Below are positions 16,137 through 48,493 of a DNA stretch of 64,000 nt, piece after piece (the stretch's first letter is position 1; every line of letters begins with the position of its first letter). Under the pieces are notes generated by a model. It had not been told where the DNA came from. It was given only the letters and a program-made list of their open reading frames with translations, and did no database searches. A program made the translations under genes and the position numbers. Source of the DNA: Dehalococcoidales bacterium (lineage in GTDB: Bacteria > Chloroflexota > Dehalococcoidia > Dehalococcoidales > CSSed11-197); contig JAQUNW010000003.1 in the NCBI GenBank assembly GCA_028717385.1, positions 12,640 through 76,639 of the forward strand, read 5' to 3'.

Positions 16137-16975
16137 TGCTGGTAGTAAAGAACGCTTGTTTCCACTACGATGCGGGGGAAAATAGTGGTTTTGAAGAAGT
16201 AAATTTTTCCCTTAAAACAGGGCAGGTGATGTGTGTACTAGGCCCCAACGGATGCGGTAAAACCACTATGTTGAAATGCCTGTTAGGCTTGTTGCGGCTG
16301 CAAGGAGGCAGCATACGGCTGGATGGCCAAGAACTCAGCCAGATGTCACGCAGTGCAGTAGCCCGAATTGTAGGATATATCCCCCAGTTGCATCAGCCAG
16401 CTTTCCCTTTTTCAGTGCTGGATACGGTATTGGTTGGCAGGGCTCCACATTTAGGATTTTTACAGTCCCCTGGTGAGAAGGATATTGAAATTGCACGCTC
16501 TGCACTTGAAGCATTGAGTATAACGCACTTGAGCAACAAACCGTTTACTCAGCTTAGCGGCGGCGAGAAGCAAATGGTTACTTTTGCTCGTGTACTTACC
16601 CAACGGCCAGCGTTGCTCTTGATGGATGAGCCAACTTCACATCTTGACTTTGGTAATCAAACCATGGTTTTAAATGTTGTTCAACAACTAGCTGCAACCG
16701 GAATGCCAATAATCATGACCTCGCACTTTCCGGATCATGCATTTTTGACTTCGAGCAAGGTGGCCATCATGAAGAAAGGCAGGTTTTTAGATTTTGGCCC
16801 GCCAGAAAAGGTCATTACCGAAGATAATATGGAGAAGATCTATGGAGTAAAAGTGAGAGTTATGGATGTTAATGATGTTGTCGGTTATAGAGTTTGTTTG
16901 CCCCTGAAAAATCATTTAAATGATTCGAATACACAGAAAATTAACCTGGAGGGATTCTATGCAAAAAAATCTTGA
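16127..16975 (+). CDS. ABC transporter ATP-binding protein (FepC/BtuD-like)
   Basis: Walker A GPNGCGKTT, signature LSGGEKQ and Walker B LLLMDEP. Confidence 0.9.
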   Translation: MGLMLVVKNACFHYDAGENSGFEEVNFSLKTGQVMCVLGPNGCGKTTMLKCLLGLLRLQGGSIRLDGQELSQMSRSAVARIVGYIPQLHQPAFPFSVLDTVLVGRAPHLGFLQSPGEKDIEIARSALEALSITHLSNKPFTQLSGGEKQMVTFARVLTQRPALLLMDEPTSHLDFGNQTMVLNVVQQLAATGMPIIMTSHFPDHAFLTSSKVAIMKKGRFLDFGPPEKVITEDNMEKIYGVKVRVMDVNDVVGYRVCLPLKNHLNDSNTQKINLEGFYAKKS

Positions 16976-17525
16976 CTATTATCTGGAAAAAGCCAAAGTG
17001 TTGCATGGTGATATTTGTGCTGGCATAGTTCTGGGGGCGCGCATTACCTTAACCGGAATGAGAGAGCTGGGTATGGACCCAGATGAGCACAACCGCGACT
17101 TGATAGTATTCGTGGAGATTGATCGTTGTATGACTGACGCCGCTCAGGCAATTACCGGTACGACGTTAGGCCATCGAACCTTAAAATACGTTAACTATGG
17201 CAAATTTGCTGCTACTTTTTATGATCTGGCCAGTGGTAAGGCGGTACGCGTTTCCCGACGTGATAAGGTCAAATATTCAGGCCAGGACATGAAGGAATAT
17301 TTTAAAACAGCACCAGAAGATGAAATAATTGAAATCGAAAAGGTTGAAATAGAAATGAGTGATTTTGACTTGCCAGGATATCCTCGCAGGACTGAAGAGT
17401 GCTGCCACTGTGGTGAACTTATCTTTGATGGCCGTGGTGTTGGTCGTAAAGGCAGCTTGCTCTGCCGGGCGTGTGCTGACGGATCTTATTATAAAAAAGA
17501 GAAGGTTAACAATGAAACTGATTGA
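16959..17525 (+). CDS. FmdE-family protein with C-terminal zinc ribbon
   Basis: HGDICAGIVLGARI...EIDRCMTDAAQAITG is an FmdE/FwdE-domain pattern, with CHCGE...CRAC at the C-terminus. The ATG at 16959 follows GGAGGG; the track ORF starts at 16920. Confidence 0.75.
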   Translation: MQKNLDYYLEKAKVLHGDICAGIVLGARITLTGMRELGMDPDEHNRDLIVFVEIDRCMTDAAQAITGTTLGHRTLKYVNYGKFAATFYDLASGKAVRVSRRDKVKYSGQDMKEYFKTAPEDEIIEIEKVEIEMSDFDLPGYPRRTEECCHCGELIFDGRGVGRKGSLLCRACADGSYYKKEKVNNETD

Positions 17526-23800: not shown

Positions 23801-23982
23801 AGGACTGTTTTTCCTGGTTTTGTACTTTCACAAGTAAATATTCTCTGATTTGTGTTGCCTAATCTTAAAAGTATGGCATGCAAACAATGCCCCGAATAAA
23901 TCGGGGCTGAGGGTTCAGGCGGAAACACTTGAGCCTCCCATATTTGGAAAAGAGAAAATGATTGGTTAATGCTGTTCAAAAA

Positions 23983-24081: not shown

Positions 24082-25002
24082 ATGACCGATTACCACAAGT
24101 TCCTGCCCGAGCTTAAAAGCATGACATTATTTCAAAACATTGGGGATAAAGACCTGATAGCCCTGCTGGAAGTTATGAAACCTGAAATAGTGCAGAAAAA
24201 AGCCGATGACCGGGGAATGCCACCAATCGACCTTGAACAAGGAATGTTCTGTGTTGTACTTAAAGGGAAGCCCCTCTCTCAGCTAGAATCCCGCCTCGAT
24301 ACCTATAACATGCCGAAATTCGGCGAGCCCGGCATGATGATGGGGGAAATCCCCTGTCTTTCAGAAACGCTTAAAAGCCGCGCACCCAAAATGCGGTTTA
24401 AGGGTGCTCCACCCCCTCGTCCTAAAAAAGAGACTTTTGACCTGTATATGCTTCGCATGAGCGGAGAAATGCTTACCAGATTTTACGGTAAGCAATACGC
24501 TGATGCCCAGGGAACCATGCTTCGCAACTTTCTGGGAATTCTGGCGCAAAAAGTAACTGATGTACGTAAGGAAAAGGCTGAAGCTGTTGCCAAACTGGAG
24601 GCTGAGCTTGCCCCGCACCGTCTGCATATATTCTGCGCAGGTGTTTCCATGAAACTTGTAAAGAGGGTAGCAGAAGAGTGGAACAAACTGCACCCGGATC
24701 TGCCGGCAAACGTTGTGCCGGGCGGGTCTGTAGCCCTTATCAAGGACTGTATATCCGGCGAACCGTGTGATGTTTTTATATCTGCCGACGATTCAATTAT
24801 CCAGACCATGATGATGCCCAAATATGCTGAAGGGTACCGCATCTGGGCAGGCAACAAAATGGTAGTAACCGGAGATGATATTAACAGTAGTAACTGGGAA
24901 GAAAAGCTCCTGGCAGAGGATGCAACCTTCAAGCACATGAATCCGTATGGCGATCCCGGCGGTTATCGTGCCGCCATGGGATTCTGGAAAATTCCCTGGT
25001 AA
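24082..25002 (+). pseudogene. cNMP-binding-like domain fused to a ModA/WtpA-like molybdate/tungstate-binding domain, 3'-truncated
   Basis: The N-terminus (LFQNIGDKDLIALLE...FGEPGMMMGEI) is Crp-effector-like. Residues 180-300 (HIFCAGVS...GGSVALIKDCISGEPCDVFISADDS...DPGGYRAAM) are WtpA/ModA-like. There is no signal peptide, and the frame ends 25 nt after meeting a converging truncated gene. Confidence 0.5.
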
Positions 25003-25298: not shown

Positions 25299-25868
25299 TT
25301 ATAGGAAACTGTAATATCCACCCTCGGCACATGTACGGCAGAGCTTTTTTCCATTTTTAACCACATGACGGGAATCGATGACGTTCTCTCCACAGTTTTC
25401 ACAGTAGATAGCTTCAACCGGCGGCCCTGCCAGGTCGCAGGGTTTTAATTCTATTTTTACGTTTCGGTAGGAAAGCAACTCCTCGAACGGCAGATTTTTA
25501 TAAAAGGCGATCATGTCTTCGCCGTCTTCAGGATATATGCGCTTTTTGTGATAGATGCGAACCGCTTTATCGGTATTCATATCGAGAAAACTGGCAGCGA
25601 CTATGCCATAGTCATAGAAACTATAACTACGCCTGCCGATTCGGCATCCGGTGACTATGCCGATGGAATCAGCCGGGCAGCGGTCGCATTCCACGAAGAC
25701 TTTCATTTTAGTCTGTTCGGATTCGTTATCCAGCTCCAGCAGCTTCATAGCATAGTGCGCCATTTTTACACCGATGCATTGTCCGGAACAGAGGTGCCCG
25801 TGATAAGCGATAGCCAGTTTCATATCCTCTTCGAAAGTTCTCATTTTTACTCCCTTTGTATATATCAA
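25299..25868 (-). CDS. FmdE-family protein with C-terminal zinc ribbon (second copy)
   Basis: 189 aa with HGHLCSGQCIGVKMA...ECDRCPADSIGIVTG and CENCGE...CRTC. It is a paralogue of 16959..17525. Confidence 0.75.
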   Translation of the reverse strand: MIYTKGVKMRTFEEDMKLAIAYHGHLCSGQCIGVKMAHYAMKLLELDNESEQTKMKVFVECDRCPADSIGIVTGCRIGRRSYSFYDYGIVAASFLDMNTDKAVRIYHKKRIYPEDGEDMIAFYKNLPFEELLSYRNVKIELKPCDLAGPPVEAIYCENCGENVIDSRHVVKNGKKLCRTCAEGGYYSFL

Positions 25869-26079: not shown

Positions 26080-26229
26080 ATGGTACAACAAATTACGGAT
26101 AAGTGCTGGCAAGTTGAGGCCAGAAGTGAAGAAACCAGACAATTCATCCGGGATATTAAGCGCCAAACACGCCGCAAATTCACCGCTGAAGAAAAAGTTC
26201 GTATTGTATTGGAAGGCTTTCGCCGGGAT
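26080..26229 (+). pseudogene. IS3-type OrfA (HTH transposase) N-terminal fragment
   Basis: RRKFTAEEKVRIVLEGFRRD is the characteristic start of IS3-family OrfA HTH proteins. The similarity ends abruptly at about 26230, where recombinase-like sequence begins in another frame. Confidence 0.5.
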
Positions 26230-26235
26230 ACTCCT

Positions 26236-27302
26236 TATAGACCGTCAGGGTTAAGGATGGCAATGCCGAGAGAACCAGGCTTGAACCTCATCCCGAGCAG
26301 GCAACGGTGGTTGAGATGGTATTTAATGGTGTATTAAGCGGCAAGGTGCTTATCGAAATAACCAGAGGTCTTAATGAAAGGCTGGTACCGGGACCATCAA
26401 ACAAGAAATGGGTTAAAACCAGCCTGCATGGCATTCTTACCAACGAGGTCTATACCGGTACTGCAGTATGGGGTAAGTCCAGCAAGCAGGGGTTACCACC
26501 GGTAAGGGTTGAGGATGCTTATCCGGCTATTGTCAGCTGGGAGGTGTTTGACCGGGTAAGAACGATGCTGGGGGAGCGGGCACCGGCTAAGGTTAATCCC
26601 AGGCGGATTGCCAGCCGTTTCCTGTTAAGCGGCCTTGTCCGCTGTAGCTACTGCGGCAAAGGTTTATGCAGCCGGGATGCCAAGGGTGGGAAGTTTTCCT
26701 ACTATGCCTGTACCACCAAGGATAAGCAGGGCCCATCTGCCTGCCCGAGTGTGTACTATAACAGCCGTAAGCTGGAAGGGCTTATTGTTGATAGGATCAG
26801 AGGCCTGATACTGACTGAAGAAAACCTGCCACAGCTCATATCGCTGGTCAAGGAGCAGGTGAATGCTGACACAATCGAGTACCAGGAATAACTCGGTCTG
26901 ATCAGCCAGGAGCAGGACAGGGTATCTGGCAGGCTTGACCGGCTGTATGATGCGCTTGAAACCGGTAGTGTCAGCCTAGCCGACCTTGCTCCCCGGATAA
27001 AGGAGTTAAGAAACCGGCAGGAAGAACTGGCTAACCGGAAACTTGAGATTGAATCATCAATGTCTGAGCATTGGATAAGTGGAATAGATCCCAACAGGAT
27101 CAAATACTATATCGACAACCTCAAAGCCCTGCTTGACCACGGTGAGCTATTTGAGAGAAAGGCATTTATCAGAAGTTTTGTACAGGAAATCATTGTTTCC
27201 AAACACGATGTGAAGCTGATCTATGCGATGCCTATGATCCCGAGCGTATCAGAATCGTTTGAGGAAGAAGTTCTACATTCTGTACGGTATGGTGGGCGGT
27301 AG
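26236..27302 (+). pseudogene. large serine recombinase lacking the catalytic resolvase domain, with an in-frame TAA at 26889
   Basis: The recombinase domain (LEPHPEQATVVEMVF...W..TSLHGILTNEVYTG) and zinc ribbon (CSYCGKGL...YYACT) are present, and a coiled-coil tail continues in the same frame after the TAA (LGLISQEQDRVSGRLDRLYDALETG...). There is no N-terminal Ser-catalytic domain. Confidence 0.75.
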
Positions 27303-27366
27303 AGGACTCGAACCACTGACCTCTGCGATGTCAACGCAGCGCTCTAACCAGCTGAGCTAACCGCCC
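27290..27366 (-). tRNA. tRNA-Val (anticodon GAC), CCA encoded
   Basis: GGGCGGTTAGCTCAGCTGGTTAGAGCGCTGCGTTGACATCGCAGAGGTCAGTGGTTCGAGTCCTCTACCGCCCACCA. It has a 7-bp acceptor stem, D and anticodon stems, and the loop TTGACAT. There is one U-U mismatch in the T stem. Confidence 0.88.
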
Positions 27367-28737: not shown

Positions 28738-31089
28738 ATGGATTCAAAGAGTTGTCAATTATTGGAATATGACCGCATACTAGAAATAATTGCGGGCTAC
28801 TCCGGGTTTTCTAGAAGCCATGATCTTGTACTCAACCTTAAGCCATCCATTGATATTGATCAAATCAGGGCGAGGCTTGCGAGATCAGCTGAAGCCAGAA
28901 CACTTCTTGAAACCGAGCCTGGTTTTAGCCTTGACGGAATAAAGGATGTCACCGCTCTTGCTGTAGCTGCGGGAAGAGGTAAAATGTTGGATCCGCTTCA
29001 GCTTCTGGACATAGCTCAGACGGTGAACATTTGTACCCGGCTACAAGCTGTAATAGGGAGCAGGGGGAAAGATTTGCCGCTTCTTTCGAGCCTTGCTGGA
29101 AGGATCGCGGATCTTAAGCCTGTGGAAAAAGAGATAATAAGAACGATTACCCCGGGAGGGGAGGTTCAGTCATCATCGTCACCCAGGCTTGCTCAGATAA
29201 GAAATGAGCTTAAATCGGTCCGGGAAAAGCTTCTCCGCGAGCTGGAAACCATTATTAAATCTGAAGAGGCCGCCAAGTCTCTCCAGGAAGCTATCATCAC
29301 TCAACGTGAAGGGCGCTATGTAGTACCTGTACGAGTTGAGAACAAGAGAGATATCAAGGGGATAGTTCATGATGTTTCTAATACCGGAGCAACTGTATTT
29401 ATAGAGCCATGGTCGATCATTGATACTGGAAATGAGCTTAAGCAGCTTGAGCTTGAAGAAATACGAGAAATCGAGAAAATTCTTGCTGGTTTAAGCGCTA
29501 AAGTTGGTAGTTATAGTCAAGAAATCTCTTTAACTATTGAGATTGCTGCCCAAATCGATCTCGAACTTGCCAAAGCGCGGTATGCATATTCAGTTACAGC
29601 CTTTGAACCGCAAGTTAGCTTACTGGAAAAGGATTCTACGCTTAAGCTTGTTCGAGCGCGTCATCCGCTATTAAAAGGTAAGGCAGTCCCGCTGGATCTG
29701 GAAATTGGCCGGGAGTATTCTACATTGGTAATAACCGGTCCTAATACTGGAGGGAAGACAGTTGCTCTTAAGACTATTGGCTTATTGTGCCTGATGGCAC
29801 AAGCAGGGCTACCGGTACCCGCGGATTCGGCAACACAGCTACCGGTTTTCGATGGTATTTTTGCCGATATTGGTGACGAACAAAGCATTGAACATACTCT
29901 TTCTTCATTTAGCTGGCACATGGGGAATATCAGCCGCATACTCAATCTTGCATCTCCAAAAAGCCTTGTGCTGATGGATGAACTAGGCACTAGCACTGAT
30001 CCAGTTGAAGGATCGGCACTGGCAGCAGCTATCATTAATCATCTGTTTACACAAGGCACCATGACAGTAGCCACCAGCCATTTTAATGAATTGAAAGCTT
30101 TGGCGCATACCACTCCCGGTATCAAGAATGCAGCTTTTGAGTTTGATCCAGTAACCCTGCTACCAACATATCGTATTGTGCCAGGGGTGCCGGGCGGCAG
30201 TAATGCTCTGATAACTGCTGCTCGGTTGGGAGTGCCAGGTCATATTATTCAATCAGCCAAAGAGCGTCTATCTTCGCAAGACAGGCAACTCGATTCATTA
30301 CTGTTTGAACTAGCAAACGAAAAAACCCGCGCACGAAATGCTACTTTTGAAGCAGAAACCGCACAGAAAGAAACCGAAAAACTGCGTAACGAACTTGCAA
30401 GCGAACTCAAGAAGCTAAAAACAGAAAAAACTAGGATTCTTGATAATGCAAGGGATGAAGTAGTAACGGAGATTGGAGACCTCGCCCGGGAAATTCGTAA
30501 TATTTCAGCTACGCTAAAAAAACAAAGGTCAAGAGAGCAGTTAGTAATAGCGGAAACTAGCCTGGAAAAGATACGGAAAAAGTTAAGAGAGGCACCAATA
30601 TTTAATCAAGGTGAACCGGCAGGGACTGCTGAGACTCAAGAAATAAATCCCGGTGACATGGTTTGGTTAAATGACCTGGCGATGGAAGCGCGAGTAGTGG
30701 CGTTCAACAATGCCACTGGTCAGGTCACTGCTGAAGCGGGGTCGTTGAGATTAACAGTTGATAGCGCCAATGTCACGCGGGTCAAACCGCAAGGCGCCAA
30801 TAAAGAAAAAAAATATACCGGCGGCACCAGAGTGATTAGGTCAAATATTTCTATGGAACTTGATCTACGTGGCCGGCGGGCTGATGATGTAGAATTAGAG
30901 TTGGAAAGCTATCTTGACGGTGCCATAGGGGCAAATCTTGATACAGTGCGTATTATACACGGGTTTGGTGCTGGAGTAGTGCGCCAAATAGTACGTGACT
31001 ATCTTTCACGACAAAAACTGGTAAAATCGTTCAGACCGGGAGTAAATGATGAGGGCGGTGACGGAGTTACCGTGGTAAAACTGGTGTGA
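28738..31089 (+). CDS. mutS2: endonuclease MutS2 (MutS paralogue with C-terminal Smr domain)
   Basis: 783 aa with Walker A GPNTGGKT, then DELGTSTDP, a long coiled-coil and an Smr domain LDLRGRRADD...VRIIHGFGAGVVR. Confidence 0.92.
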   Translation: MDSKSCQLLEYDRILEIIAGYSGFSRSHDLVLNLKPSIDIDQIRARLARSAEARTLLETEPGFSLDGIKDVTALAVAAGRGKMLDPLQLLDIAQTVNICTRLQAVIGSRGKDLPLLSSLAGRIADLKPVEKEIIRTITPGGEVQSSSSPRLAQIRNELKSVREKLLRELETIIKSEEAAKSLQEAIITQREGRYVVPVRVENKRDIKGIVHDVSNTGATVFIEPWSIIDTGNELKQLELEEIREIEKILAGLSAKVGSYSQEISLTIEIAAQIDLELAKARYAYSVTAFEPQVSLLEKDSTLKLVRARHPLLKGKAVPLDLEIGREYSTLVITGPNTGGKTVALKTIGLLCLMAQAGLPVPADSATQLPVFDGIFADIGDEQSIEHTLSSFSWHMGNISRILNLASPKSLVLMDELGTSTDPVEGSALAAAIINHLFTQGTMTVATSHFNELKALAHTTPGIKNAAFEFDPVTLLPTYRIVPGVPGGSNALITAARLGVPGHIIQSAKERLSSQDRQLDSLLFELANEKTRARNATFEAETAQKETEKLRNELASELKKLKTEKTRILDNARDEVVTEIGDLAREIRNISATLKKQRSREQLVIAETSLEKIRKKLREAPIFNQGEPAGTAETQEINPGDMVWLNDLAMEARVVAFNNATGQVTAEAGSLRLTVDSANVTRVKPQGANKEKKYTGGTRVIRSNISMELDLRGRRADDVELELESYLDGAIGANLDTVRIIHGFGAGVVRQIVRDYLSRQKLVKSFRPGVNDEGGDGVTVVKLV

Positions 31090-31841
31090 CCAATGAAGAA
31101 TCAATTAACGAAAAACATATGCACCCGGAGCAAATTCGCCGGAAGCTTAGTTTGCTTGCATCAGCTGAAGGTGACAGTAATTGTTGGTATTCACTGCCCG
31201 TAAATAGTGAGATTGGTATTCAAGCGCCTGGAGGATTTTACCTGCCGGAAGCAGTTCAGGAGCAAGCGCAAAAAAGCCTCACAGGATTTGCGGTATTTTG
31301 CACCAAACAAAACACGCAATGTGAATATACTTTGGTAATCCCTCCATTTCCTCTTAAAGAGACTCTTATTGGCAGCTACATAGAAACCGCTCCTTTGCTG
31401 GAAATTCTGGAACACCCATACGTGATTGGAATAGTGCTTATCCGGTTGGGTAGCTTTGCTTTTGGAGTGAGCAGGGGACAGAATCTTGTTGCTAGCAAAG
31501 TTGGCAAAGGATTAGTACATGGGCGTCACCGGCAAGGAGGTTCTTCGGCCAATCGGTTTGCTCGTCACCGGGAAAAACAGATGGAGATATTCTTTACCCG
31601 TGCCTGTAGCTACCTGCGGGAGAAGCTCGAGCCTTACCTGAAAGAAATCGATTATATACTATATGGAGGAGCGCGGACCACCATCATGGAGTTTAAAAAA
31701 CAGTGTCCGTTTACTGGAGTACTTGGCTATCCGGAGTTACCAAGCCAGCTTGACCTGCCTGATCCAAACCAAGCGGTTTTAAATAATGCATTGGAAAGAG
31801 CCTGGAGTAGTCGGGTATTTACCTGGTTAAGCCTTGAATAA
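31086..31841 (+). CDS. Vms1/ANKZF1-like (VLRF1 / eRF1-fold) putative peptidyl-tRNA hydrolase
   Basis: 251 aa with LIRLGSFAFGVSRGQNLVASKVGKGLVHGRHRQGGSSANRFARHREKQ, matching the VLRF1 core as I recall it (GG-S..RF.R.RE). The GTG start at 31086 overlaps the mutS2 TGA. Confidence 0.6.
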   Translation: MTNEESINEKHMHPEQIRRKLSLLASAEGDSNCWYSLPVNSEIGIQAPGGFYLPEAVQEQAQKSLTGFAVFCTKQNTQCEYTLVIPPFPLKETLIGSYIETAPLLEILEHPYVIGIVLIRLGSFAFGVSRGQNLVASKVGKGLVHGRHRQGGSSANRFARHREKQMEIFFTRACSYLREKLEPYLKEIDYILYGGARTTIMEFKKQCPFTGVLGYPELPSQLDLPDPNQAVLNNALERAWSSRVFTWLSLE

Positions 31842-33591: not shown

Positions 33592-34803
33592 ATGGCTTTA
33601 GATTTACATAAAGTTGCCAATTCTCTGTCTGCTATGGCTGGCGAACTTGCGTACTCCAGAACGGAGCAGGCAGAAAAGCTTGGCAATGCGCTGAAATTAT
33701 TTAACTCACCAGCAGATATTTGTGCGCTCAAGGGTAAAATTGCTTCCAGTAAAACCAGTTGGCTGGTAGCAGAAATTAATCAAGGGCTGAACGGTAAATA
33801 TCTACCACTTGATACACCGGAACAATTTAGTGTTTTGGCTACTGATGGTTCTCAAATAGATGTTGATCGGCACCATGGTGTCCGTTGCTGCTTGATAAAC
33901 ATTGGAACTGTAATGCTCAGATACGGCAGGAATCCCGAGGCAATGCTGCAAAACCACCCATTGCTGCTGTCAAGGGAAGAAGACTTGGTTTTGCGTCCGG
34001 ACGAATACGCTCCTGGACGGGAAATGATGGTCGAAGGTTCGATACTTGGCATGATGCGCACTGTGGAGGAGTTTAACCATCTGGCTGAATTATGCGCTGC
34101 CTTGCCCAACGGCGCAAATGCCCTGGCGCTGGTTGATGGTTCCTTGATTATGTGGAGTCTCCTTTCAAAAGAGTATCCAGATTACATAATAGATACAATT
34201 TTGGATCAAGGCGTTTTAAAACACATGGAAAGAATAGGGCAGTTGAATCCGGAACGGCGGGTGGCATTGGCTAGTTACATTAGCTTCACTCGCAGTACTG
34301 ATGTAGTTAATGCTTTACGTGTGCTTACTTGTCCTTACGAAAAAGCAGACTGCGACCGATATTGTGCTGGTGCAGAAGCAGAAGCCCGGCCTTGTGCAAT
34401 GCTGGATGGCATACATGATCGGGATGTTTTTTGGCAGTGGTTGAAATGTAGTGAACGCTCCGAGGTTTTTGCCAGCCGTTCCAAGATAAACTGCACCCGT
34501 TACGGTAAGCAGCGGGTATATTTTTATTATCTTAAAACTTCAGATGAAGTTGCTCGCATCGAAATACCAGAGTGGGTTGCACAGGATGAAGAGTTGCTGA
34601 AGCTGTCTCATTCTTTGGTGGTTAGACAATGCAAAAAAGGGCAGGGCTATCCGGTAGCATTATCAGAAGCTCATGAACAAGCGGTAGTAACCGGGGCTGA
34701 CAGAGAGAATTTTTACAGTTTGATGGAAGAGTATCTTACTGGAAGCAAGTTGCTTGTATCGGTTTCTGCCAAAAGTCTCAGCAAGAAAACACGGTGGGTC
34801 TAG
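33592..34803 (+). CDS. nurA: NurA-domain nuclease
   Basis: 403 aa. VLATDGSQIDV and ALVDGSLIMW are catalytic Asp boxes, and GYPVALSEAHEQAVV is the NurA C-terminal motif. It sits in an operon with a HerA ATPase. Confidence 0.7.
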   Translation: MALDLHKVANSLSAMAGELAYSRTEQAEKLGNALKLFNSPADICALKGKIASSKTSWLVAEINQGLNGKYLPLDTPEQFSVLATDGSQIDVDRHHGVRCCLINIGTVMLRYGRNPEAMLQNHPLLLSREEDLVLRPDEYAPGREMMVEGSILGMMRTVEEFNHLAELCAALPNGANALALVDGSLIMWSLLSKEYPDYIIDTILDQGVLKHMERIGQLNPERRVALASYISFTRSTDVVNALRVLTCPYEKADCDRYCAGAEAEARPCAMLDGIHDRDVFWQWLKCSERSEVFASRSKINCTRYGKQRVYFYYLKTSDEVARIEIPEWVAQDEELLKLSHSLVVRQCKKGQGYPVALSEAHEQAVVTGADRENFYSLMEEYLTGSKLLVSVSAKSLSKKTRWV

Positions 34804-34829
34804 CTGCCGACTTGTGTTGAAAATATACT

Positions 34830-35438
34830 TTGCGGGGGAAGAAATTGGAAGCAAGCGATGAGCGAATTGGAGAGGTGATTGAAGCTAGCACGGGTGGATT
34901 TAGTGCCCAGTGCTATCAGCTCTATAAATTACCGGCTCTGGGAGAACTAGTTAAATGCCGCTATCAAGACGTTGATATTCTGGCGGTAACCTGTAACGGT
35001 TCAACCAGCAGTCTGGAGCCAGGGCGGCGGCCGATTGCCAGGGGTTATGAAGAGGCAAGTGAAGAGGACTTATATAATAATAATCCGCAATTGAAACAGT
35101 TACTCAGGAGTGAATTTAGCACTGTCGTGGTAGGCTTTAAGCGCGGTGAGAGCTTTTACCACTATCTTCCGCCACAACCCGTACGTCTCCACAGTTTTGT
35201 TTACCGATGTAGCCCTGATGAAGTAATCAGCTTCGGCGAATCTATGGAGTTCCTGATGCTGCTTTCCGGAGTGCAATGTGAAGTTCCGATTGAAGAATTG
35301 ATAGCAGCTTGTCTCAGGGTCATGGGTGCGTTTCATAGCCCGGAATCAGATTTTAATATGCGCGCCGGCAGGAAGCTTGCTGAGATTTATAGTGGAGATT
35401 ACCAGCGTCTGCGGGCGATTCTTGCGAGGTTAAAATAA
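34830..35438 (+). CDS. hypothetical protein with a HAS-barrel-like N-terminus, between nurA and herA
   Basis: 202 aa. ERIGEVIEASTGGFSAQCYQL..LPALGELVKC resembles a HerA/ATP-synthase barrel start, but there are no NTPase motifs. Its stop overlaps the herA ATG (TAATG). An alternative TTG start lies at 34845. Confidence 0.5.
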   Translation: MRGKKLEASDERIGEVIEASTGGFSAQCYQLYKLPALGELVKCRYQDVDILAVTCNGSTSSLEPGRRPIARGYEEASEEDLYNNNPQLKQLLRSEFSTVVVGFKRGESFYHYLPPQPVRLHSFVYRCSPDEVISFGESMEFLMLLSGVQCEVPIEELIAACLRVMGAFHSPESDFNMRAGRKLAEIYSGDYQRLRAILARLK

Positions 35439-37042
35439 TGGACTCATATGCACATAAAAAACTGGGGATTGTAATCGCAGGTTCATTGAACCAGGGAATC
35501 CAGGCACGTTTGGATAATGATGTCAGCGTAGAAGAAATTACAGTTGGAAATCTGGTCACTATCCAGGGTAAATCGCGACGCTTTTTTGGCATGATAAACG
35601 ACATATCTCTAGCAGTTACCGATGCAGGAATTTTACAGTCTCCATCGACTGCTGATGACCCTTTTATTTCAGGGATTTTATCTGGTACCGCCACCTATGG
35701 AACCATGCAGGTGGTGCCTTACCTGACCCTTGGAAGTGATGAAAGCCTGTTGGAAGGTCCTCAACCGGTCAAGTCTATTCCCAGCCACTTTTCCCCGGTG
35801 ATGCTTGCCAATGAAGCTGATATCGAGCTTGTTTTCGGTAGAGAAAGCAAAGAAAACTTTTCTATCGGAAATCCATTGGATATGGAGGTAAAGCTCTGTC
35901 TGGATCTTCCTGAATTTGTAAGACGTTCAAATGGCGTGTTCGGCAAGAGCGGTACCGGAAAAACATTTTTAACTCGTTTGCTGCTTGCTGGAATACTGCA
36001 ATCCGGGGCGGCGGTGAATCTGGTCTTTGATATGCACAGTGAATATGGCTGGAAAGGCACTCGTGAAAAAGCCGGCCCGGTAAAGGGTTTAAAACAGCTC
36101 TTTTCGTCTAAGGTCTCTGTTTTTACTCTGGATGAGCAGAATTCTCTGGACCGGGGAGTAAGTACAGATTTTGTGGTTAATATTGGTTATGATGAAATAA
36201 AGCCCGAAGACATCACTCTTCTTCGTCAGACCTTGAACCTGACCGACCAGGCGGTTTCTGCCACTTATCAGTTGCAGAAACGTTACGGCAACAGATGGAT
36301 CGAAGAAACGATGCAATTAGAGGATGAAGAAGAGAGCAGTGAGGTTTTACGCAGTCTGAATATCCATGAGGCTACATTTGATAATCTAAAACGCGGATTG
36401 AGAAATATATGCAATCTCCCTTTCACTAGCCCGCAAGTAAAAGAACGAGCTGTTGATAAAGTGTTGGAATATTTGGAAAACGGAAAGCATGTGGTTCTGG
36501 AATTCGGACGCTTCAGGGATATCACTGCCTATATACTGGTGGCTAATCTGTTAACCAGGCGCATATATGAGCGTTATCAATACAAAACCGAGCGAGCCAT
36601 GGCGGAAGATCGCCCGCAGCCTAAACCACTTGTGATTACGATTGAGGAAGCTCACAAGTTTTTAAATCCGGCTGTTGCCAGCCAGACTATTTTTGGCACC
36701 ATCGCCAGGGAGATGAGGAAGTACAATGCAACCCTTTTGGTAATTGACCAGCGGCCAAGCGGTATAGATGAAGAAGTGATGAGTCAGCTGGGCACCAAAA
36801 TTACCTGCCTTCTAGATAGTGAACGGGATATTGACTCCGTACTGGCAGGAATGTCCGGGAAGAGTGCACTTAAATCGGTATTAGCCAAACTGGCTTCCCG
36901 TCAACAGGCACTGATATTTGGGCATGCGGTTCCCATGCCGGTAGCATTCCGACCCAGGGACTATGGTACCCCGGAGTCCTACAAAGAATTAAGCTCTCCC
37001 CAAATAGATCTTGGTACGGATAATCTTGAGGATCTCTGGTAA
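35438..37042 (+). CDS. herA: HerA-type (DUF87, FtsK/HerA superfamily) ATPase/helicase
   Basis: 534 aa with a HAS-barrel N-terminus (KLGIVIAGS...VGNLVTIQG), Walker A GVFGKSGTGKTF, Walker B-like LVITIEEAHKF and LLVIDQRPS. Confidence 0.8.
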   Translation: MDSYAHKKLGIVIAGSLNQGIQARLDNDVSVEEITVGNLVTIQGKSRRFFGMINDISLAVTDAGILQSPSTADDPFISGILSGTATYGTMQVVPYLTLGSDESLLEGPQPVKSIPSHFSPVMLANEADIELVFGRESKENFSIGNPLDMEVKLCLDLPEFVRRSNGVFGKSGTGKTFLTRLLLAGILQSGAAVNLVFDMHSEYGWKGTREKAGPVKGLKQLFSSKVSVFTLDEQNSLDRGVSTDFVVNIGYDEIKPEDITLLRQTLNLTDQAVSATYQLQKRYGNRWIEETMQLEDEEESSEVLRSLNIHEATFDNLKRGLRNICNLPFTSPQVKERAVDKVLEYLENGKHVVLEFGRFRDITAYILVANLLTRRIYERYQYKTERAMAEDRPQPKPLVITIEEAHKFLNPAVASQTIFGTIAREMRKYNATLLVIDQRPSGIDEEVMSQLGTKITCLLDSERDIDSVLAGMSGKSALKSVLAKLASRQQALIFGHAVPMPVAFRPRDYGTPESYKELSSPQIDLGTDNLEDLW

Positions 37043-37071
37043 GTTGTATTCTCAAAGGGGAAAATAGCACC

Positions 37072-37878
37072 ATGGTAAACAAAAAAATTGGCCTCGCTTT
37101 AGGAGGAGGAGCGGCAAGAGGGATTGCTCATATTGGCGTGCTCAGGGCATTGGAAGCTAACCATATTAAAATTGATTGTATTGCCGGGACCAGTGCCGGG
37201 GCAGTAGCTGGAGCTGCTTACGCCAGAGGTACCAGCCCGGACGCACTAAAAGAGATGGCAGTTAGCATGGGGGTAAGGGACTGGGCTAGTCTGGCAGATG
37301 TTCGTATTCCCCATGGCGGATTTATTGCCGGAAATCGTATAGTAAGCCTGCTAAAAGTGATTATTGGAGAAGCGGACTTTAAAGATTTAAAATTGCCGTT
37401 TGCCTGTGTAGCCTGTGACCTTTATAGTGGTGAGGAAGTGGTCATCAATCGGGGCTCCGTTCTGGAAGGGGTCAGAGCCAGCATTTCAATACCCCTGGTT
37501 TTTTCAGTTGTTGAATACGAAGGGCGCTATCTAGTCGATGGAGGATTGATAAACCAGGTTCCGGTGAATGTGGTGCGGAGCATGGGGGCAGATATTGTTA
37601 TCGCAGTTAATGTAATCCCTGCGCTTAACAACCGTCAGAAAAAATGGATTACAAAAAAAGCAAAACAGCCCGGGATATTCGATGTCATGATGCAAGTTAT
37701 TGATATCACTAATGTAAAGACCGTACGCGACAGCCTTGAGGGGGCGGATGTAGTAATTAATCCAGACACTCGAGACTTTAACTCGGCAGATTTCCACCAG
37801 GCGAAAGAGCTTATATTACAAGGTGAAATAGCAGGTGAGTTAGCAATTCCCGAGATTGATTTAGCCCTCAGATCTTGA
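37072..37878 (+). CDS. patatin-like phospholipase (RssA/NTE family)
   Basis: 268 aa with the oxyanion motif GGGAARG, the nucleophile motif GTSAGA and the catalytic DGG. Confidence 0.88.
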   Translation: MVNKKIGLALGGGAARGIAHIGVLRALEANHIKIDCIAGTSAGAVAGAAYARGTSPDALKEMAVSMGVRDWASLADVRIPHGGFIAGNRIVSLLKVIIGEADFKDLKLPFACVACDLYSGEEVVINRGSVLEGVRASISIPLVFSVVEYEGRYLVDGGLINQVPVNVVRSMGADIVIAVNVIPALNNRQKKWITKKAKQPGIFDVMMQVIDITNVKTVRDSLEGADVVINPDTRDFNSADFHQAKELILQGEIAGELAIPEIDLALRS

Positions 37879-46032: not shown

Positions 46033-46509
46033 TTACAGCTTCTTGTAGTATGTTATCCGGTGATCACCAGGAGCGTAAAAATCTGGAATGCAAGATACTT
46101 GACAGTAGCCATGAGAAGAATAAAATTTGCGGGTCTTTTCATATTCTGGTATCGATGAGGTTTCTATAAGCGCCAGTTTTCCTCCCAGTAGGCGGATGTT
46201 AGTCTCCGCTTCATTGATTAATGATGAACCAATGCCAAAGCCTTGTCGTGCGGGAATTACGGCTTCCCAGTAAATGTCCCAGGTACTCTCGGTGAGGGGA
46301 GTAGGGCCATAGCAAATATATCCAACCAAAACATGGTTTTCTTCAGCTACCAGAATGTGGTATCCAGAATTGGTGCCTTTGCCAAGATATTCGTCAACCA
46401 GTTCTTTGGCGATGGTGATTTCTATTGGTTTGAATTGAGGAATTGTTTCAAGTAAATAGACAATTTCAGACTTGTCCTGTGCACTCATTTGGCGGATTAC
46501 AATACTCAT
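46033..46509 (-). CDS. GNAT family N-acetyltransferase
   Basis: 158 aa with the acetyl-CoA motif RQGFGIGSSL. Its start lies 1 nt after the stop of the upstream ATP-grasp gene. Confidence 0.8.
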   Translation of the reverse strand: MSIVIRQMSAQDKSEIVYLLETIPQFKPIEITIAKELVDEYLGKGTNSGYHILVAEENHVLVGYICYGPTPLTESTWDIYWEAVIPARQGFGIGSSLINEAETNIRLLGGKLALIETSSIPEYEKTRKFYSSHGYCQVSCIPDFYAPGDHRITYYKKL

Positions 46510-46510
46510 A

Positions 46511-47500
46511 TCAACTATTATCCAGTGCCTGTTCGATAATTATCTTAATCAATTCTGTATATGTCAGCCCGGCTGCTGCAGCTTGTTTAGCGCAGCCTGC
46601 ATCTGGGGAGATATCTGGGTTCGGGTTTACCTCTAACACATAGAAACTCCCATAATCATCCTGGCGGATATCAACTCTGGAGTATCCATGGCAGCCACAG
46701 GCTTTATAGGCGTTAATAGATAGTTCTCTGATTTTAGATTCATCTCTTCGTGATGTTTTAGCCGGGCAAACAGATTGGGTTTGTTTGTAGTATAAACTAT
46801 CCGGATTCCATTTAGATTCAAACGTAAGAATCCTGGGCATTTCGGATGGGAGGTCATACACAATTTCAGATACTGGCAGCACCTTATTGCCAAGCACAGT
46901 TGCATTAAACTCTTTACCATCAATGAATTCTTCAACCAGAGCCGGTTTTCCTGAAGTTAGCAGAATTCGTTCCAAAACGCTATTAAGGCTTTCCGGTGAA
47001 TATATAACGTTGTCAATATAAATGCCGTGACTGGCATCTTCCTGTGAAGGTTTTGCGATAACCGGGTAGTTAATTGTTAACTCTCCCGGGGAAGACGAAT
47101 CAAGAATTTGGAAATCAGGTGTAGGGATGCCTTTCTTTTTAAAAGTGTTTTTAGAAAGCACCTTATCCAATCCAATCTCAAGAGCCTCTGGTGGATTACC
47201 GGTATATGGGATATCCAGGTTATGGCAACCTTTGGCAATTTCAACCTCGGTTTCCGGTTGGCCGTCGAATCCTTCAAAGAGATTGAATATCACCGAAGCC
47301 TTGATACGGCTAACGGTATCAAGCGCTTCATCAAGTGGGGGTGAAAGCGGCACTAAAAAAGACTGGCAGCTAAGCTCCAGCAGGGCATTCTCAACTGCAG
47401 CAACAGCGTTTAGTACTCCTTTAATGGCCGCATCTTCATCAGATGCAGTATAACGCGAGGGCGCTGGTTTATTGTAAATAATTGCTATATCTGGATGCAT
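46511..47500 (-). CDS. ATP-grasp ligase, D-alanine--D-alanine ligase-like (copy 2)
   Basis: 329 aa with YPVIAKPSQEDASHGI and SRVDIRQDDYGSFYVLEVNPNPD. It overlaps the upstream gene by 16 nt. Confidence 0.75.
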   Translation of the reverse strand: MHPDIAIIYNKPAPSRYTASDEDAAIKGVLNAVAAVENALLELSCQSFLVPLSPPLDEALDTVSRIKASVIFNLFEGFDGQPETEVEIAKGCHNLDIPYTGNPPEALEIGLDKVLSKNTFKKKGIPTPDFQILDSSSPGELTINYPVIAKPSQEDASHGIYIDNVIYSPESLNSVLERILLTSGKPALVEEFIDGKEFNATVLGNKVLPVSEIVYDLPSEMPRILTFESKWNPDSLYYKQTQSVCPAKTSRRDESKIRELSINAYKACGCHGYSRVDIRQDDYGSFYVLEVNPNPDISPDAGCAKQAAAAGLTYTELIKIIIEQALDNS

Positions 47501-48492
47501 TGCGGATATCTTTCGAGCGCAGCTGAAAGAATCATCTGGATAAGGCTTTGGTGAGATATGCCCAGAAAGCTGGCCATTATTACCAAATCACTGTGATTGC
47601 CCAAGCCAGGAAGCGGATTAATCTCGATAAAATAAGGTTGCCCCTGTTTATCGATTCTAAAATCAAGCCTGGCCATATCCAGGCAGCCGAGTAATGAGTA
47701 AATCTTGAGGCTGGTCTTTTTTATTTCTTCTAATACCGTCTTTGGTAAATTGGCAGGGCATTCATAATCGACCTGGTTTACATAATCCCGCTTTACTTCA
47801 ATTGAATACATGAACATTTCGTGCCGATGTTTGGGCTTGATTTCCATTATCCCAAGAACATCGGGTTTATGAGAGCCAATAATTCCCACTGTTACTTCTC
47901 TGCCAGATATATACTGTTCTATCATCACTGGCTGATTATATCCAACCAGTGATGTTGTGCAGAGTGCTTTTGCTTCCTGGACATTTTGCGCAAGAGAGCA
48001 ATTATGGATTCCGATGCTTGAACCTTCATGGGCAGGTTTTACAACCAAAGGGAAGCCAATATTATCCCAAGATACTCTATCTGCCGATTGCTTATCACTC
48101 ACAACCAGCCAGTGAGGTGTAACTATGCCGGAAGCTTTGAGAATATGCTTGGTTAGTGGTTTATCAAGACAGATCGAAAGACATTGGGGGGATGAACCAG
48201 TATAGGGAATGTTATACATTTCAAGCACTGACGGAACCTGCGCCTCGCGTGATGGATAGTTCCCGCGACCTTCGCTGATGTTAAAAACAAGTTCGGCATC
48301 AGTACCTGCGCACATATTACTAAGAAATTCCAAACCCCCACCCAGATGTATCACCGTATGGCCAAGTGCCTCAAGAGAAGAAGAAATCAACTGAACGGTT
48401 TCAACCGAGTCGTATTCTTCTGCAATATCTTCCGGCAAGCCGGGTTTCAGATCAAAGCTGGTTTTGAGATCGTAAGTGAGACCGATGTGCAT
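47485..48492 (-). CDS. ATP-grasp ligase, D-alanine--D-alanine ligase-like (copy 1)
   Basis: 335 aa from the ATG at 48492 (MHIGLTYDLK), with FPLVVKPAHEGSSIGI and ARLDFRIDKQGQPYFIEINPLPG. The start lies 1 nt after the kamA TAA. The track ORF extends spuriously to 48687. Confidence 0.78.
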   Translation of the reverse strand: MHIGLTYDLKTSFDLKPGLPEDIAEEYDSVETVQLISSSLEALGHTVIHLGGGLEFLSNMCAGTDAELVFNISEGRGNYPSREAQVPSVLEMYNIPYTGSSPQCLSICLDKPLTKHILKASGIVTPHWLVVSDKQSADRVSWDNIGFPLVVKPAHEGSSIGIHNCSLAQNVQEAKALCTTSLVGYNQPVMIEQYISGREVTVGIIGSHKPDVLGIMEIKPKHRHEMFMYSIEVKRDYVNQVDYECPANLPKTVLEEIKKTSLKIYSLLGCLDMARLDFRIDKQGQPYFIEINPLPGLGNHSDLVIMASFLGISHQSLIQMILSAALERYPQCIQI

Positions 48493-48493
48493 A

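What the first reader, a model, noticed from the sequence alone, without database searches (positions are those of the whole stretch)
28738..31841. mutS2 translationally coupled to a Vms1/VLRF1-like peptidyl-tRNA hydrolase: possible two-gene ribosome-rescue module
The GTG start at 31086 of the 251-aa ORF overlaps the mutS2 TGA (31087-89), giving GTGTGA. The downstream protein carries ...GRHRQGGSSANRFARHREKQ..., which matches my recollection of the eRF1-fold VLRF1 domain of Vms1/ANKZF1, the enzyme that releases nascent chains from obstructed 60S subunits in eukaryotes.

Published Bacillus subtilis work shows that MutS2 senses and splits collided ribosomes upstream of RqcH-dependent quality control. 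A physical operon linking the collision sensor/splitter to a release-factor-like hydrolase suggests an alternative rescue route: split the ribosome, then hydrolyse the peptidyl-tRNA. I am not aware of any experimental description of such a route in bacteria.
Basis: partly seen in the sequence, partly recalled or inferred. Interest (0 to 1): 0.65.

Follow-up and report, generated by a model that had tools for sequence, protein, structure and literature searches.

The report
MutS2 paired with eRF1-like release factor
In this Dehalococcoidales genome the ribosome-collision ATPase MutS2 sits in a conserved two-gene unit with a small eRF1/Vms1-type protein; the pairing recurs across Chloroflexota in both gene orders, which makes that protein a candidate for the dedicated nascent-chain release factor not yet identified in bacterial ribosome quality control.

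Summary
mutS2 (28738-31089) ends in TGA, and that stop shares 4 nt (GTGA) with the GTG start of a 251-aa ORF (31086-31841). The ORF passes Pfam acVLRF1 (86 bits, cut-off 27.1) and folds like aRF1/eRF1. NCBI already names this exact protein "Vms1/Ankzf1 family peptidyl-tRNA hydrolase", so the protein identity is not new.

The linkage appears to be new:
- In 80 species-level Dehalococcoidia genomes, mutS2 lies directly upstream on the same strand in 73 (median gap 18 nt). The window's other neighbours recur in at most 4 of 80.
- In marine Chloroflexota the order is reversed (VLRF1 then mutS2) in 9 of 53 testable loci, falling in two separate clades.
- The open literature I could search does not describe the pair. 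Burroughs and Aravind (2019) called bacterial VLRF-1 "standalone".

13 of 73 linked homologues have no Gln in the loop at all, yet the Gly-Gly pair and the basic loop are invariant.

Most likely model: MutS2 splits collided ribosomes and the VLRF1 protein frees the nascent chain from the 50S-peptidyl-tRNA. Whether it hydrolyses the ester bond or cuts the tRNA is open. Co-occurrence with rqcH could not be tested.

The parts
28738..31089 (+). mutS2 (rqcU-type), 783 aa. It has the full B. subtilis-like architecture.
   Evidence: TIGR01069 gives 795 bits against a cut-off of 400. It aligns over residues 3-782 with B. subtilis MutS2 from the ribosome complexes 8qpp/7qv3, E 4e-152.
29725..30273 (+). 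MutS domain V, the ABC-type ATPase (aa 330-512). It carries Walker A GPNTGGKT and Walker B DELG.
   Evidence: PF00488 gives 124 bits. The motifs are visible in the alignment.
30649..30762 (+). KOW/SH3-like (MSSS) region of MutS2, aa 638-675.
   Evidence: PF20297 gives 18.6 bits, below the cut-off of 26.8. The region aligns with the KOW region of B. subtilis MutS2.
30859..31083 (+). Smr domain of MutS2 (aa 708-782). It has DLR in place of the nuclease DxH motif, and HGFGAG.
   Evidence: PF01713 gives 76 bits. 'LDLRG' aligns with the B. subtilis 'LDLRG'. The meaning of DLR versus DxH is taken from PMC10897456.
31086..31089 (+). GTGA: the start codon of the VLRF1 gene overlaps the mutS2 stop codon by 4 nt.
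   Evidence: Sequence. ATGA occupies the same column in L003 and L004. The overlap recurs in five more loci. A metatranscriptome contig spans 31060-31269.
31086..31841 (+). acVLRF1-family gene for an eRF1-fold protein, 251 aa.
   Evidence: PF18859 gives 86.1 bits against a cut-off of 27.1. The AlphaFold2 model has pLDDT 88. The best Foldseek match is aRF1 4af1 (E 1e-10); Vms1-60S 6r84 matches at E 9.5e-5.
31509..31586 (+). Loop equivalent to the GGQ loop, plus the basic start of the following helix (aa 142-167: GLVHGRHRQGGSSANRFARHREKQME). GGSSA is encoded at 31536-31550.
   Evidence: 17 of the 45 invariant columns of alignment A1 fall in these 26 residues. The stretch aligns with aRF1 'GKQRKGGQSAQRFARLR'. 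pLDDT dips to 63-69 here, as expected for a flexible loop.

Best explanation
mutS2 and the acVLRF1 gene form a co-transcribed unit. In the window's subclade they are also translationally coupled. I propose that both act in one ribosome-rescue pathway.

MutS2 is built like the B. subtilis collision sensor and splitter: an ABC-type ATPase, a KOW region, and an Smr domain with DLR instead of the nuclease DxH. By homology it recognises collided ribosomes and splits the stalled one. That leaves a 50S subunit still carrying peptidyl-tRNA.

The acVLRF1 protein is an eRF1-fold protein. It keeps the central domain with an invariant Gly-Gly loop and a basic helix. It lacks the stop-codon-reading elements and the C-terminal domain that binds the GTPase and ABCE1. 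I infer that it enters the vacant A-site side of that 50S and places its loop at the peptidyl-transferase centre or the CCA end. It would then detach the nascent chain, as Vms1/ANKZF1 does on 60S subunits.

Shown here: the identity of both proteins, the fold, the strong conservation of the loop, and conserved linkage in two gene orders. Inferred: the substrate (50S-peptidyl-tRNA), the order of action, and the chemistry. The chemistry could be ester hydrolysis driven by the GG backbone, or cleavage of the tRNA 3' end. The sequence cannot decide between these, because the canonical Gln is absent.
For: Linkage:
- mutS2 is upstream on the same strand in 73 of 80 species-level genomes, with a median gap of 18 nt. 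VLRF1 identity across these is 41-68% and MutS2 identity 42-79%.
- The window's other neighbours (BioY, DegV, DUF1295, NurA, HerA, patatin) recur in at most 4 of 80 loci.
- The opposite order, VLRF1 then mutS2 with a 75-145 nt gap, occurs in 9 of 53 testable marine Chloroflexota loci. None of 52 has mutS2 upstream. One such pair carries consecutive NCBI accessions, MEC9309679.1 and MEC9309678.1.
- The reverse-order loci form two clades separate from the forward clade.
- A metatranscriptome contig crosses the gene junction.

Protein identity and fold.

Loop under strong constraint: 17 of 45 invariant columns fall in 26 residues, and G151/G152 are invariant in both alignments A1 and A2.

Literature:
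- MutS2 splits collided ribosomes upstream of RqcH (PMC10897456).
- In release factors any Gly mutation abolishes release, while the Gln side chain has a packing role (PMC5799190).
- In yeast Vms1, R288A and G292A/G293A are dead (PMC5989216). By motif spacing the matching residues here are R147 and G151/G152, which are invariant.
Against: - There is no biochemical or genetic evidence for this protein or for any member of acVLRF1.
- The canonical Gln of GGxSQ/GGQ is replaced: GGSSA in the window, and 13 of 73 linked homologues have no Gln anywhere in the loop. Vms1 Q295L is strongly impaired.
- B. subtilis handles the same step with RqcH/RqcP and Pth and has no VLRF1, so a dedicated factor is not required in principle.
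- Most acVLRF1 genes of the distant marine clade are not next to mutS2.
- Actinobacteria, after which acVLRF1 is partly named, have neither mutS2 nor rqcH (0 of 3,213 genomes, PMC11633108). If their members are functional, the family can work without MutS2.
- The RNA evidence is a single contig of depth 4, and DNA carry-over cannot be excluded.
Confidence: 0.55

Rival explanations
1. A Pelota/Dom34-like partner. On this reading the VLRF1 protein is catalytically silent. It probes the empty A site of the stalled 70S and helps the ABC-type ATPase of MutS2 to split it, as Pelota helps ABCE1.
For: The canonical Gln is lost in most linked members, and 13 of 73 have no Gln in the loop. The eRF1 superfamily has inactive splitting members: Pelota and Dom34 are among the fold matches, and the parallel is drawn in PMC10897456. 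MutS2 carries an ABC-type ATPase.
Against: The GGQ-equivalent loop is the most conserved part of the protein, and the Gly-Gly pair is invariant. From my own knowledge, Pelota lacks such a loop. The protein has no C-terminal domain, which is the part of eRF1/Pelota that contacts ABCE1 and the GTPase. MutS2 is the ribosome-splitting factor in B. subtilis, and no such partner is described there.
Confidence: 0.13
2. A stand-alone, stop-codon-independent release factor acting on stalled 70S ribosomes, like ArfB. On this reading the linkage to mutS2 reflects co-regulation of two parallel rescue routes, not consecutive steps.
For: Burroughs and Aravind proposed that prokaryotic VLRF-1 proteins are single-component release factors. 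Most distant-clade genes are solitary. Actinobacteria, one of the two lineages the family is named for, lack mutS2 and rqcH.
Against: No domain is predicted that could sense an empty mRNA channel or a stop codon. Tight operon coupling, including 4-nt overlaps, and recurrence in two gene orders point to a stoichiometric or sequential partnership rather than loose co-regulation.
Confidence: 0.15
3. A Balon-like hibernation or ribosome-protection factor that occupies the A site of idle ribosomes.
For: Balon, a bacterial eRF1-superfamily hibernation factor, is among the structural matches (8v9j, 8rd8; E 3e-7 to 7e-7).
Against: Balon matches less well than aRF1/eRF1. The protein is about 110 residues shorter than Balon and lacks the third domain. 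Linkage to a collision sensor is not explained by hibernation.
Confidence: 0.04
4. The adjacency has no functional meaning: it is inherited synteny, or MutS2 acts here on DNA (suppression of recombination).
For: All linked loci are from one phylum. MutS2 was first described as a DNA-binding nuclease (the PDB chains are still named 'Endonuclease MutS2').
Against: Surrounding synteny is scrambled while the pair persists. The pair occurs in both gene orders, in three separate VLRF1 clades. Where the pair is interrupted, the insert is a transposase-like gene or a duplicated phosphatase, and the pair keeps its strand and order. An eRF1-fold protein has no known role on DNA.
Confidence: 0.08

Closest known systems
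acVLRF-1 family (Pfam PF18859; Burroughs & Aravind 2019, PMC6514570)
   Same: Passes the family HMM. About 250 aa. Has the eRF1 central RNase H-fold domain with a Gly-Gly loop followed by an Arg-rich helix. Has no C-terminal domain. Found in Chloroflexota.
   Different: The family motif GGxSQ reads GGSSA here, with a Gln shifted to the position before GG (QGG) or absent altogether. The score is below NCBIfam's curated cut-off for acVLRF1 (107.5 against 125). The family was described as standalone, but this clade is operon-linked to mutS2.
Eukaryotic Vms1/ANKZF1 (RQC nascent-chain release factor / tRNA CCA endonuclease)
   Same: Same superfamily fold. Stop-codon independent by architecture. Proposed to act after ribosome splitting on a large subunit that still holds peptidyl-tRNA. 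The Arg and the Gly pair essential in Vms1 have invariant counterparts here, judged by motif spacing.
   Different: No detectable sequence similarity to the solved Vms1 chains at E<=1. Structural similarity is weaker than to aRF1. There is no Rei1-type zinc finger, no ankyrin repeats and no VIM. The essential Q295 equivalent is missing. The partner is MutS2 rather than the RQT/Cdc48 machinery.
B. subtilis MutS2(RqcU)-RqcH/RqcP-Pth pathway
   Same: MutS2 has the same length and architecture, including DLR in the Smr domain. The proposed first step, collision sensing and splitting, is the same.
   Different: B. subtilis has no VLRF1; there release is by the general Pth after Ala-tailing. Here a dedicated eRF1-fold gene is coupled to mutS2, and no rqcH lies within 5-6 kb of any of the 168 loci examined.
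Archaeal aRF1 / eukaryotic eRF1
   Same: These are the best sequence matches (E 3e-14) and structure matches (E 1e-10). The loop aligns residue for residue: aRF1 GKQRKGGQSAQRFARLR against window GRHRQGGSSANRFARHR. The beta-core of the N domain also aligns.
   Different: GGQ reads GGS here. The helical hairpin that reads stop codons is missing, and so is the C domain.
Pelota-ABCE1 and ArfB
   Same: Pelota-ABCE1: an eRF1-fold protein working with an ABC-type ATPase on stalled ribosomes. ArfB: a small, codon-independent bacterial release factor.
   Different: Pelota has three domains and no GG loop. ArfB has the unrelated bacterial RF fold and, a C-terminal helix that sits in the vacant codon-recognition (decoding) centre of non-stop-stalled ribosomes.

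Membership tests
acVLRF-1 (PF18859) | Significant match to the family HMM above the gathering score | tested here: met
   86.1 bits against 27.1, covering 127 of 130 profile positions.
acVLRF-1 (PF18859) | NCBIfam NF041024 acVLRF1_NCBI curated cut-off | tested here: not met
   107.5 bits against a cut-off of 125. This is a divergent subfamily.
acVLRF-1 (PF18859) | GGxSQ catalytic-loop motif (Burroughs & Aravind 2019) | tested here: not met
   The window has GGSSA. Among the 73 linked homologues: QGGSSA 41, KGGSSA 13, QGGSSS 9, KGGSSQ 9, QGGSSQ 1. The wider family has GG[SQTW]SQ or GGQSA.
acVLRF-1 (PF18859) | eRF1 central (RNase H-fold) domain, with no stop-codon-reading module and no C-terminal domain | tested here: met
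   Model pLDDT 88. Fold matches to aRF1/eRF1. The only eRF1 Pfam domain hit is eRF1_2. The protein is 251 aa long.
acVLRF-1 (PF18859) | Conserved Arg residues at the start of the helix after the loop | tested here: met
   R157, R160 and R162 are invariant in A1 and A2.
Vms1/ANKZF1 (eukaryotic VLRF-1) | Invariant Gln of GxxQ (yeast Q295), needed for activity | tested here: not met
   No Gln at the +3 or +5 positions; Q150 before GG is replaced by Lys in many homologues. The Vms1 requirement is taken from PMC5989216.
Vms1/ANKZF1 (eukaryotic VLRF-1) | Essential Arg four residues before the Gly pair, and the Gly pair itself (yeast R288, G292/G293) | tested here: inconclusive
   R147, G151 and G152 are invariant. 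The correspondence rests on motif spacing, not on a computed alignment to Vms1.
Vms1/ANKZF1 (eukaryotic VLRF-1) | Direct similarity to solved Vms1 | tested here: inconclusive
   No sequence hit at E<=1 with the A1 profile. Foldseek matches 6r84_R at E 9.5e-5 with TM 0.42, ranked 32nd behind aRF1, eRF1, Balon and Pelota.
Vms1/ANKZF1 (eukaryotic VLRF-1) | Accessory domains (Rei1-type zinc finger, ankyrin repeats, VIM) | tested here: not met
   No such Pfam hits.
Vms1/ANKZF1 (eukaryotic VLRF-1) | Releases the nascent chain from large-subunit peptidyl-tRNA complexes | not testable with these tools
   Needs biochemistry.
MutS2 / RqcU | Equivalog-level HMM match and full-length alignment to B. subtilis MutS2 | tested here: met
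   TIGR01069 gives 795 bits against 400. 8qpp_W matches at E 4e-152 over residues 3-782.
MutS2 / RqcU | ABC-type ATPase motifs, KOW region and C-terminal Smr domain | tested here: met
   GPNTGGKT and DELG are present. Smr gives 76 bits. The KOW/MSSS region is weak in Pfam (18.6 against 26.8) but aligns with B. subtilis.
MutS2 / RqcU | Binds collided ribosomes and splits them | not testable with these tools
   Inferred from homology to B. subtilis MutS2 (PMC10897456).
Class I release factor aRF1/eRF1 | GGQ tripeptide | tested here: not met
   GGS aligns with GGQ of 4af1.
Class I release factor aRF1/eRF1 | Three-domain architecture with a stop-codon-reading N domain and a C domain | tested here: not met
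   251 aa. The alignment to aRF1 stops at about residue 235-264 of aRF1. Only the beta-core of the N domain aligns.
RqcH-dependent bacterial RQC | rqcH (NFACT-N) present with mutS2 | tested here: inconclusive
   An HMM built from eight RqcH N-termini found no hit in the window or in 168 loci totalling 1.32 Mb; the positive control worked. That covers only 5-6 kb around each VLRF1 gene. Whole genomes could not be searched. In the literature, 26 of 41 Chloroflexota genomes have rqcH and 35 of 41 have mutS2.

The most novel reading that the evidence does not exclude
Chloroflexota carry a self-contained two-gene ribosome quality-control route. MutS2 splits the collided ribosome. A dedicated eRF1-fold factor then frees the nascent chain from the 50S subunit without RqcH/RqcP tailing and without Pth. 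This factor does not use the canonical catalytic glutamine, so it works either through backbone-driven hydrolysis by the Gly-Gly loop or through Vms1-like cleavage of the tRNA 3' end. It would be a prokaryotic counterpart of the eukaryotic splitting-then-Vms1 axis.
Probability: 0.3. Interest if true: 0.8.

Novelty: new variant of a known kind. Interest (0 to 1): 0.68.

Why it matters
How the nascent chain leaves the 50S subunit after MutS2-type splitting is described as the least understood step of bacterial ribosome quality control. [quoted passage not shown] A gene for an eRF1/Vms1-type protein, fused into an operon with mutS2 and re-linked in the opposite order in other lineages, gives a concrete and testable candidate. 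It also provides a natural set of loop variants (Gln at -1, +3 or +5, or absent). These bear on the unresolved question of whether VLRF1 proteins are ester hydrolases or tRNA nucleases. Finally, it bears on how the eukaryotic Vms1 step arose.

Tried and rejected
- An apparent MutS2-VLRF1 fusion ORF of 998 aa in L013 is an artefact. The junction is a run of N, translated as X.
- Genes inserted between the pair are not a third component. L017, L047, L056 and L071 carry about 190-aa proteins that look like IS200/RAYT-type transposases. L032 carries two paralogues that look like histidine phosphatases. Both identifications are by eye from motifs and were not scanned.
- RqcH co-occurrence:
  - My last protein search, with the 133-aa N-terminus of Thermobaculum RqcH, gave only 2 hits from tiny contigs.
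  - An HMM of RqcH N-termini found nothing in 1.32 Mb of loci.
  - The per-genome table of PMC11633108 is truncated in the held copy and contains no Dehalococcoidia rows.
- Defence-system reading: MutS2 and VLRF1 have no PADLOC hit.
- Promoter and terminator consensus scans around the pair gave nothing beyond the shuffle expectation.
- Cerullo 2022, Verma 2018 and Filbeck 2022 are not held. Prior mention of the pair in those papers cannot be excluded.
Full report
**1. Observation**

The ORF list and the raw sequence confirm the finding as written. mutS2 occupies 28738-31089 (+, 783 aa). A 251-aa ORF occupies 31086-31841 (+). The sequence ...CTG GTG TGA places the GTG start (31086-31088) over the TGA stop (31087-31089), a 4-nt GTGA overlap.

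The two closest relatives found in public genomes (L003 and L004, 68% and 59% identical) have ATGA in the same alignment column. The first eleven residues are conserved as protein among the closest homologues. The upstream GTG is therefore the likely start, not the ATG at 31119. The same 4-nt overlap recurs in five more distant loci: L007, L049, L055, L064 and L068.

**2. What the two proteins are**

The upstream protein reaches the equivalog model for MutS2 (TIGR01069, 795 bits against a cut-off of 400) and has MutS_V and Smr domains. It aligns over its whole length with the B. subtilis MutS2 chains solved on collided ribosomes (8qpp, 7qv3; E 4e-152). Walker A (GPNTGGKT) and Walker B (DELG) are intact. 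The Smr domain reads LDLRG...HGFGAG, the same DLR as B. subtilis rather than the nuclease DxH (the meaning of the motifs is from PMC10897456).

The downstream protein passes Pfam acVLRF1 (PF18859, 86.1 bits against 27.1). More weakly, it also passes baeRF_family10, and it hits eRF1_2 below that model's cut-off (21.5 bits against 27.1). It falls short of NCBIfam's curated cut-off for acVLRF1 (107.5 against 125). The identical sequence is already in NCBI as 'MAG: Vms1/Ankzf1 family peptidyl-tRNA hydrolase [Dehalococcoidales bacterium]'. The identity of the protein is therefore standard annotation, and the organism is a Dehalococcoidales bacterium. Its DNA turns up in bioreactor, landfill, wastewater and digester metagenomes.

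An AlphaFold2 model built on 18 homologues is confident (pLDDT 88, pTM 0.82). Its best matches among solved structures are:
- archaeal aRF1 (4af1, E 1e-10) and eRF1 in termination complexes;
- the bacterial hibernation factor Balon, and Pelota/Dom34;
- yeast Vms1 on the 60S subunit (6r84_R, E 9.5e-5, TM 0.42), ranked 32nd.

A profile of the homologues finds aRF1 by sequence (E 3e-14) but finds no Vms1 chain at E<=1. The aRF1 alignment also covers the beta-core of the N domain (LYLPP, GAVIF, PPFP). The helical hairpin that reads stop codons is missing, and so is the C domain.

**3. The loop is not canonical**

Burroughs and Aravind define acVLRF-1 by a GGxSQ loop with a catalytic Gln. The window protein reads HGRHRQGGSSANRFARHREKQ. 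Against aRF1 (GKQRKGGQSAQRFARLR) the GGQ aligns with GGS. Against the family motif, the Q of GGxSQ is Ala.

In 135 representatives of the wider family the loop is GG[SQTW]SQ or GGQSA. In the window's clade a Gln usually sits before the Gly pair instead (QGG). Among the 73 homologues linked to mutS2 the loop types are:

| Loop | Count |
|---|---|
| QGGSSA | 41 |
| KGGSSA | 13 |
| QGGSSS | 9 |
| KGGSSQ | 9 |
| QGGSSQ | 1 |

So 18% have no Gln in the loop at all.

The loop is nevertheless the most constrained part of the protein. 17 of the 45 invariant columns lie in residues 142-167, and G151 and G152 are invariant in both the close and the distant alignment. This does not look like a decayed site.

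The literature points the same way. In release factors any change to the glycines abolishes release, while the Gln side chain has a packing role (PMC5799190). In yeast Vms1 (loop GGSQ), R288A and G292A/G293A are dead and Q295L is strongly impaired (PMC5989216). By spacing, R147/G151/G152 correspond to R288/G292/G293; this correspondence is my inference. Vms1/ANKZF1 itself is now described as a tRNA endonuclease that removes the CCA end (PMC11317155). The chemistry of the window protein cannot be read from the sequence.

**4. The linkage is conserved**

A scan of one genome per species (GTDB) with the homologue alignment found 165 species that encode a relative. The best 80 are all Dehalococcoidia/Chloroflexota MAGs.
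- mutS2 lies upstream on the same strand in 73 of the 80.
- The median intergenic distance is 18 nt. 62 of the 71 gaps that could be measured are 100 nt or less, or overlap; one of the seven 'overlaps' is the L013 N-run artefact.
- VLRF1 identity to the window ranges over 41-68% and MutS2 identity over 42-79%.
- By contrast the window's other neighbours recur in 0-4 of the 80 loci, apart from a generic MFS transporter match in 14: BioY 1, DegV 4, DUF1295 1, NurA/HerA/patatin 2.
- Where the pair is separated by 600-1,460 nt, the insert looks like an IS200/RAYT-type transposase (four loci) or two histidine-phosphatase paralogues (one locus). These were identified by eye.
- An apparent fusion ORF in L013 is a run of N.

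Three members of the more distant GGxSQ clade, from long contigs and including a SAR202 MAG, have no mutS2 nearby. A metagenome scan with an alignment of that clade gave 80 mostly marine loci. None of 52 testable loci has mutS2 upstream. However, 9 of 53 have mutS2 immediately downstream on the same strand, 75-145 nt away. One of these pairs is in NCBI as consecutive accessions from a Chloroflexota MAG: MEC9309679.1 (Vms1/Ankzf1 family) and MEC9309678.1 (Smr/MutS family).

On a neighbour-joining tree of VLRF1 sequences, the forward-order genes form one clade with three secondary losses of adjacency. The reverse-order genes form two further clades among unlinked ones (rough tree, no support values). 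Linkage in both orders, against scrambled surroundings, is what selection for co-expression predicts. Inherited synteny does not predict it.

**5. Expression**

Four RNA-type runs hold fragments of the region. In one metatranscriptome a 211-nt contig covers 31060-31269, crossing the stop/start overlap. Depth is low and DNA carry-over cannot be excluded, so this is consistent with co-transcription but is not proof. Consensus promoter and terminator scans add nothing.

**6. Context**

All larger ORFs of the window were scanned against Pfam, and the window was scanned against Rfam and for tRNA/tmRNA. There is no smpB, tmRNA, pth, arfB, rqcH or rqcP in the 64 kb. mutS2 and VLRF1 have no match in PADLOC.

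**7. rqcH**

An HMM built from eight RqcH N-termini (Table S2 of PMC11633108) finds nothing in the window or in 168 loci (1.32 Mb), with a working positive control. So rqcH is not part of the cluster, but whole genomes were out of reach. The literature gives rqcH in 26 and mutS2 in 35 of 41 Chloroflexota genomes, and neither gene in 3,213 Actinobacteriota. The per-genome table is truncated in the held copy.

**8. Prior knowledge**

No held paper contains 'acVLRF1', or 'MutS2' together with 'VLRF1'. 'MutS2' and 'Vms1' co-occur in two held records, of which one paper is listed (the preprint version of the same paper is also held). That paper states that no dedicated bacterial RQC termination factor is known. 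[quoted passage not shown] That paper appeared in 2019, before the Cerullo et al. 2022 report (cited) that tied MutS2 to ribosomes. The later MutS2 paper with the same authors mentions the eRF1 family only as an evolutionary parallel. Several subscription papers are not held, so an earlier mention cannot be excluded.

**9. Verdict**

The protein family and MutS2 are known. The conserved MutS2-VLRF1 gene pair, its occurrence in two orders, and the Gln-less but highly constrained loop of the linked clade appear to be undescribed.

The best-supported model is sequential action: MutS2 splits the ribosome, and VLRF1 releases the chain from the 50S subunit (confidence 0.55). The main rivals are a Pelota-like splitting cofactor and an ArfB-like parallel factor. 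I rate this a new variant of a known kind, with interest 0.68.

Noticed in passing
window 33592-37878: NurA (33592-34803), an unassigned 202-aa ORF (34830-35438), HerA (35438-37042, overlapping stop/start) and a patatin-like phospholipase (37072-37878) lie in one direction. HerA and the patatin protein hit PADLOC defence models (HerA E 1e-31; phospholipase effector E 1.5e-7). This could be a NurA-HerA repair pair or a HerA-based defence system. It recurs in only 2 of 80 related loci.
   Followed up: partly
window 26080-27366: Three short consecutive ORFs (85, 194 and 80 aa), of which the 194-aa one hits Recombinase and Zn_ribbon_recom, end at tRNA-Val (27290-27366, - strand). This looks like a decayed serine recombinase, the remnant of an element integrated at the tRNA.
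   Followed up: partly
window 23831-23970: A Moco (molybdenum/tungsten cofactor) riboswitch (72 bits, E 1.6e-15) lies upstream of a solute-binding protein (24082-25002, SBP_bac_11). FmdE-like genes lie at 25299-25868 and 16920-17525.
   Followed up: no
window 3441-3541 (- strand): A PyrR binding site (54.4 bits, right at the gathering score) lies ahead of a phosphoribosyltransferase (PyrR-like), aspartate carbamoyltransferase and dihydroorotase operon (590-3442). This is ordinary.
   Followed up: no
L017 5419-5982; L047 1723-2292; L056 2166-2633; L071 1302-1892: In four related genomes a gene of about 190 aa is inserted exactly between mutS2 and the VLRF1 gene. It looks like an IS200/RAYT-type transposase (motifs YDYS...HxHG...NYYEHVIRNE). 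The pair keeps its order and strand. Identification is by eye and was not scanned.
   Followed up: partly
window 31509-31586 and homologues: Across the acVLRF1 family the loop glutamine moves between three positions: QGG.., GGQ.., GGxSQ. It is sometimes doubled (GGQSQ) and sometimes absent, while the Gly-Gly pair never changes. This is a natural mutational series for the hydrolase-versus-nuclease question.
   Followed up: partly
window 31128-31415 (aa 15-110 of the VLRF1 protein): The N-terminal part aligns with the beta-core of the aRF1 N domain (LYLPP, GAVIF, PPFP). [quoted passage not shown] It seems instead to keep a reduced N domain without the helical hairpin that carries the codon-reading motifs.
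   Followed up: partly
window 46033-49810 (- strand): A cluster of lysine-2,3-aminomutase-like radical SAM enzyme, two D-Ala-D-Ala-ligase-type ATP-grasp enzymes and a GNAT acetyltransferase. It may make a beta-lysine-derived compound.
   Followed up: no
L001 8738-9439 and 44 further loci: In 45 of the 80 related loci (counted by ORF clustering) a roughly 233-aa ORF sits convergently just downstream of the VLRF1 gene. In L001 this gene is called a SIR2-family protein (PF02146). It is absent from the window, where DegV follows instead.
   Followed up: no
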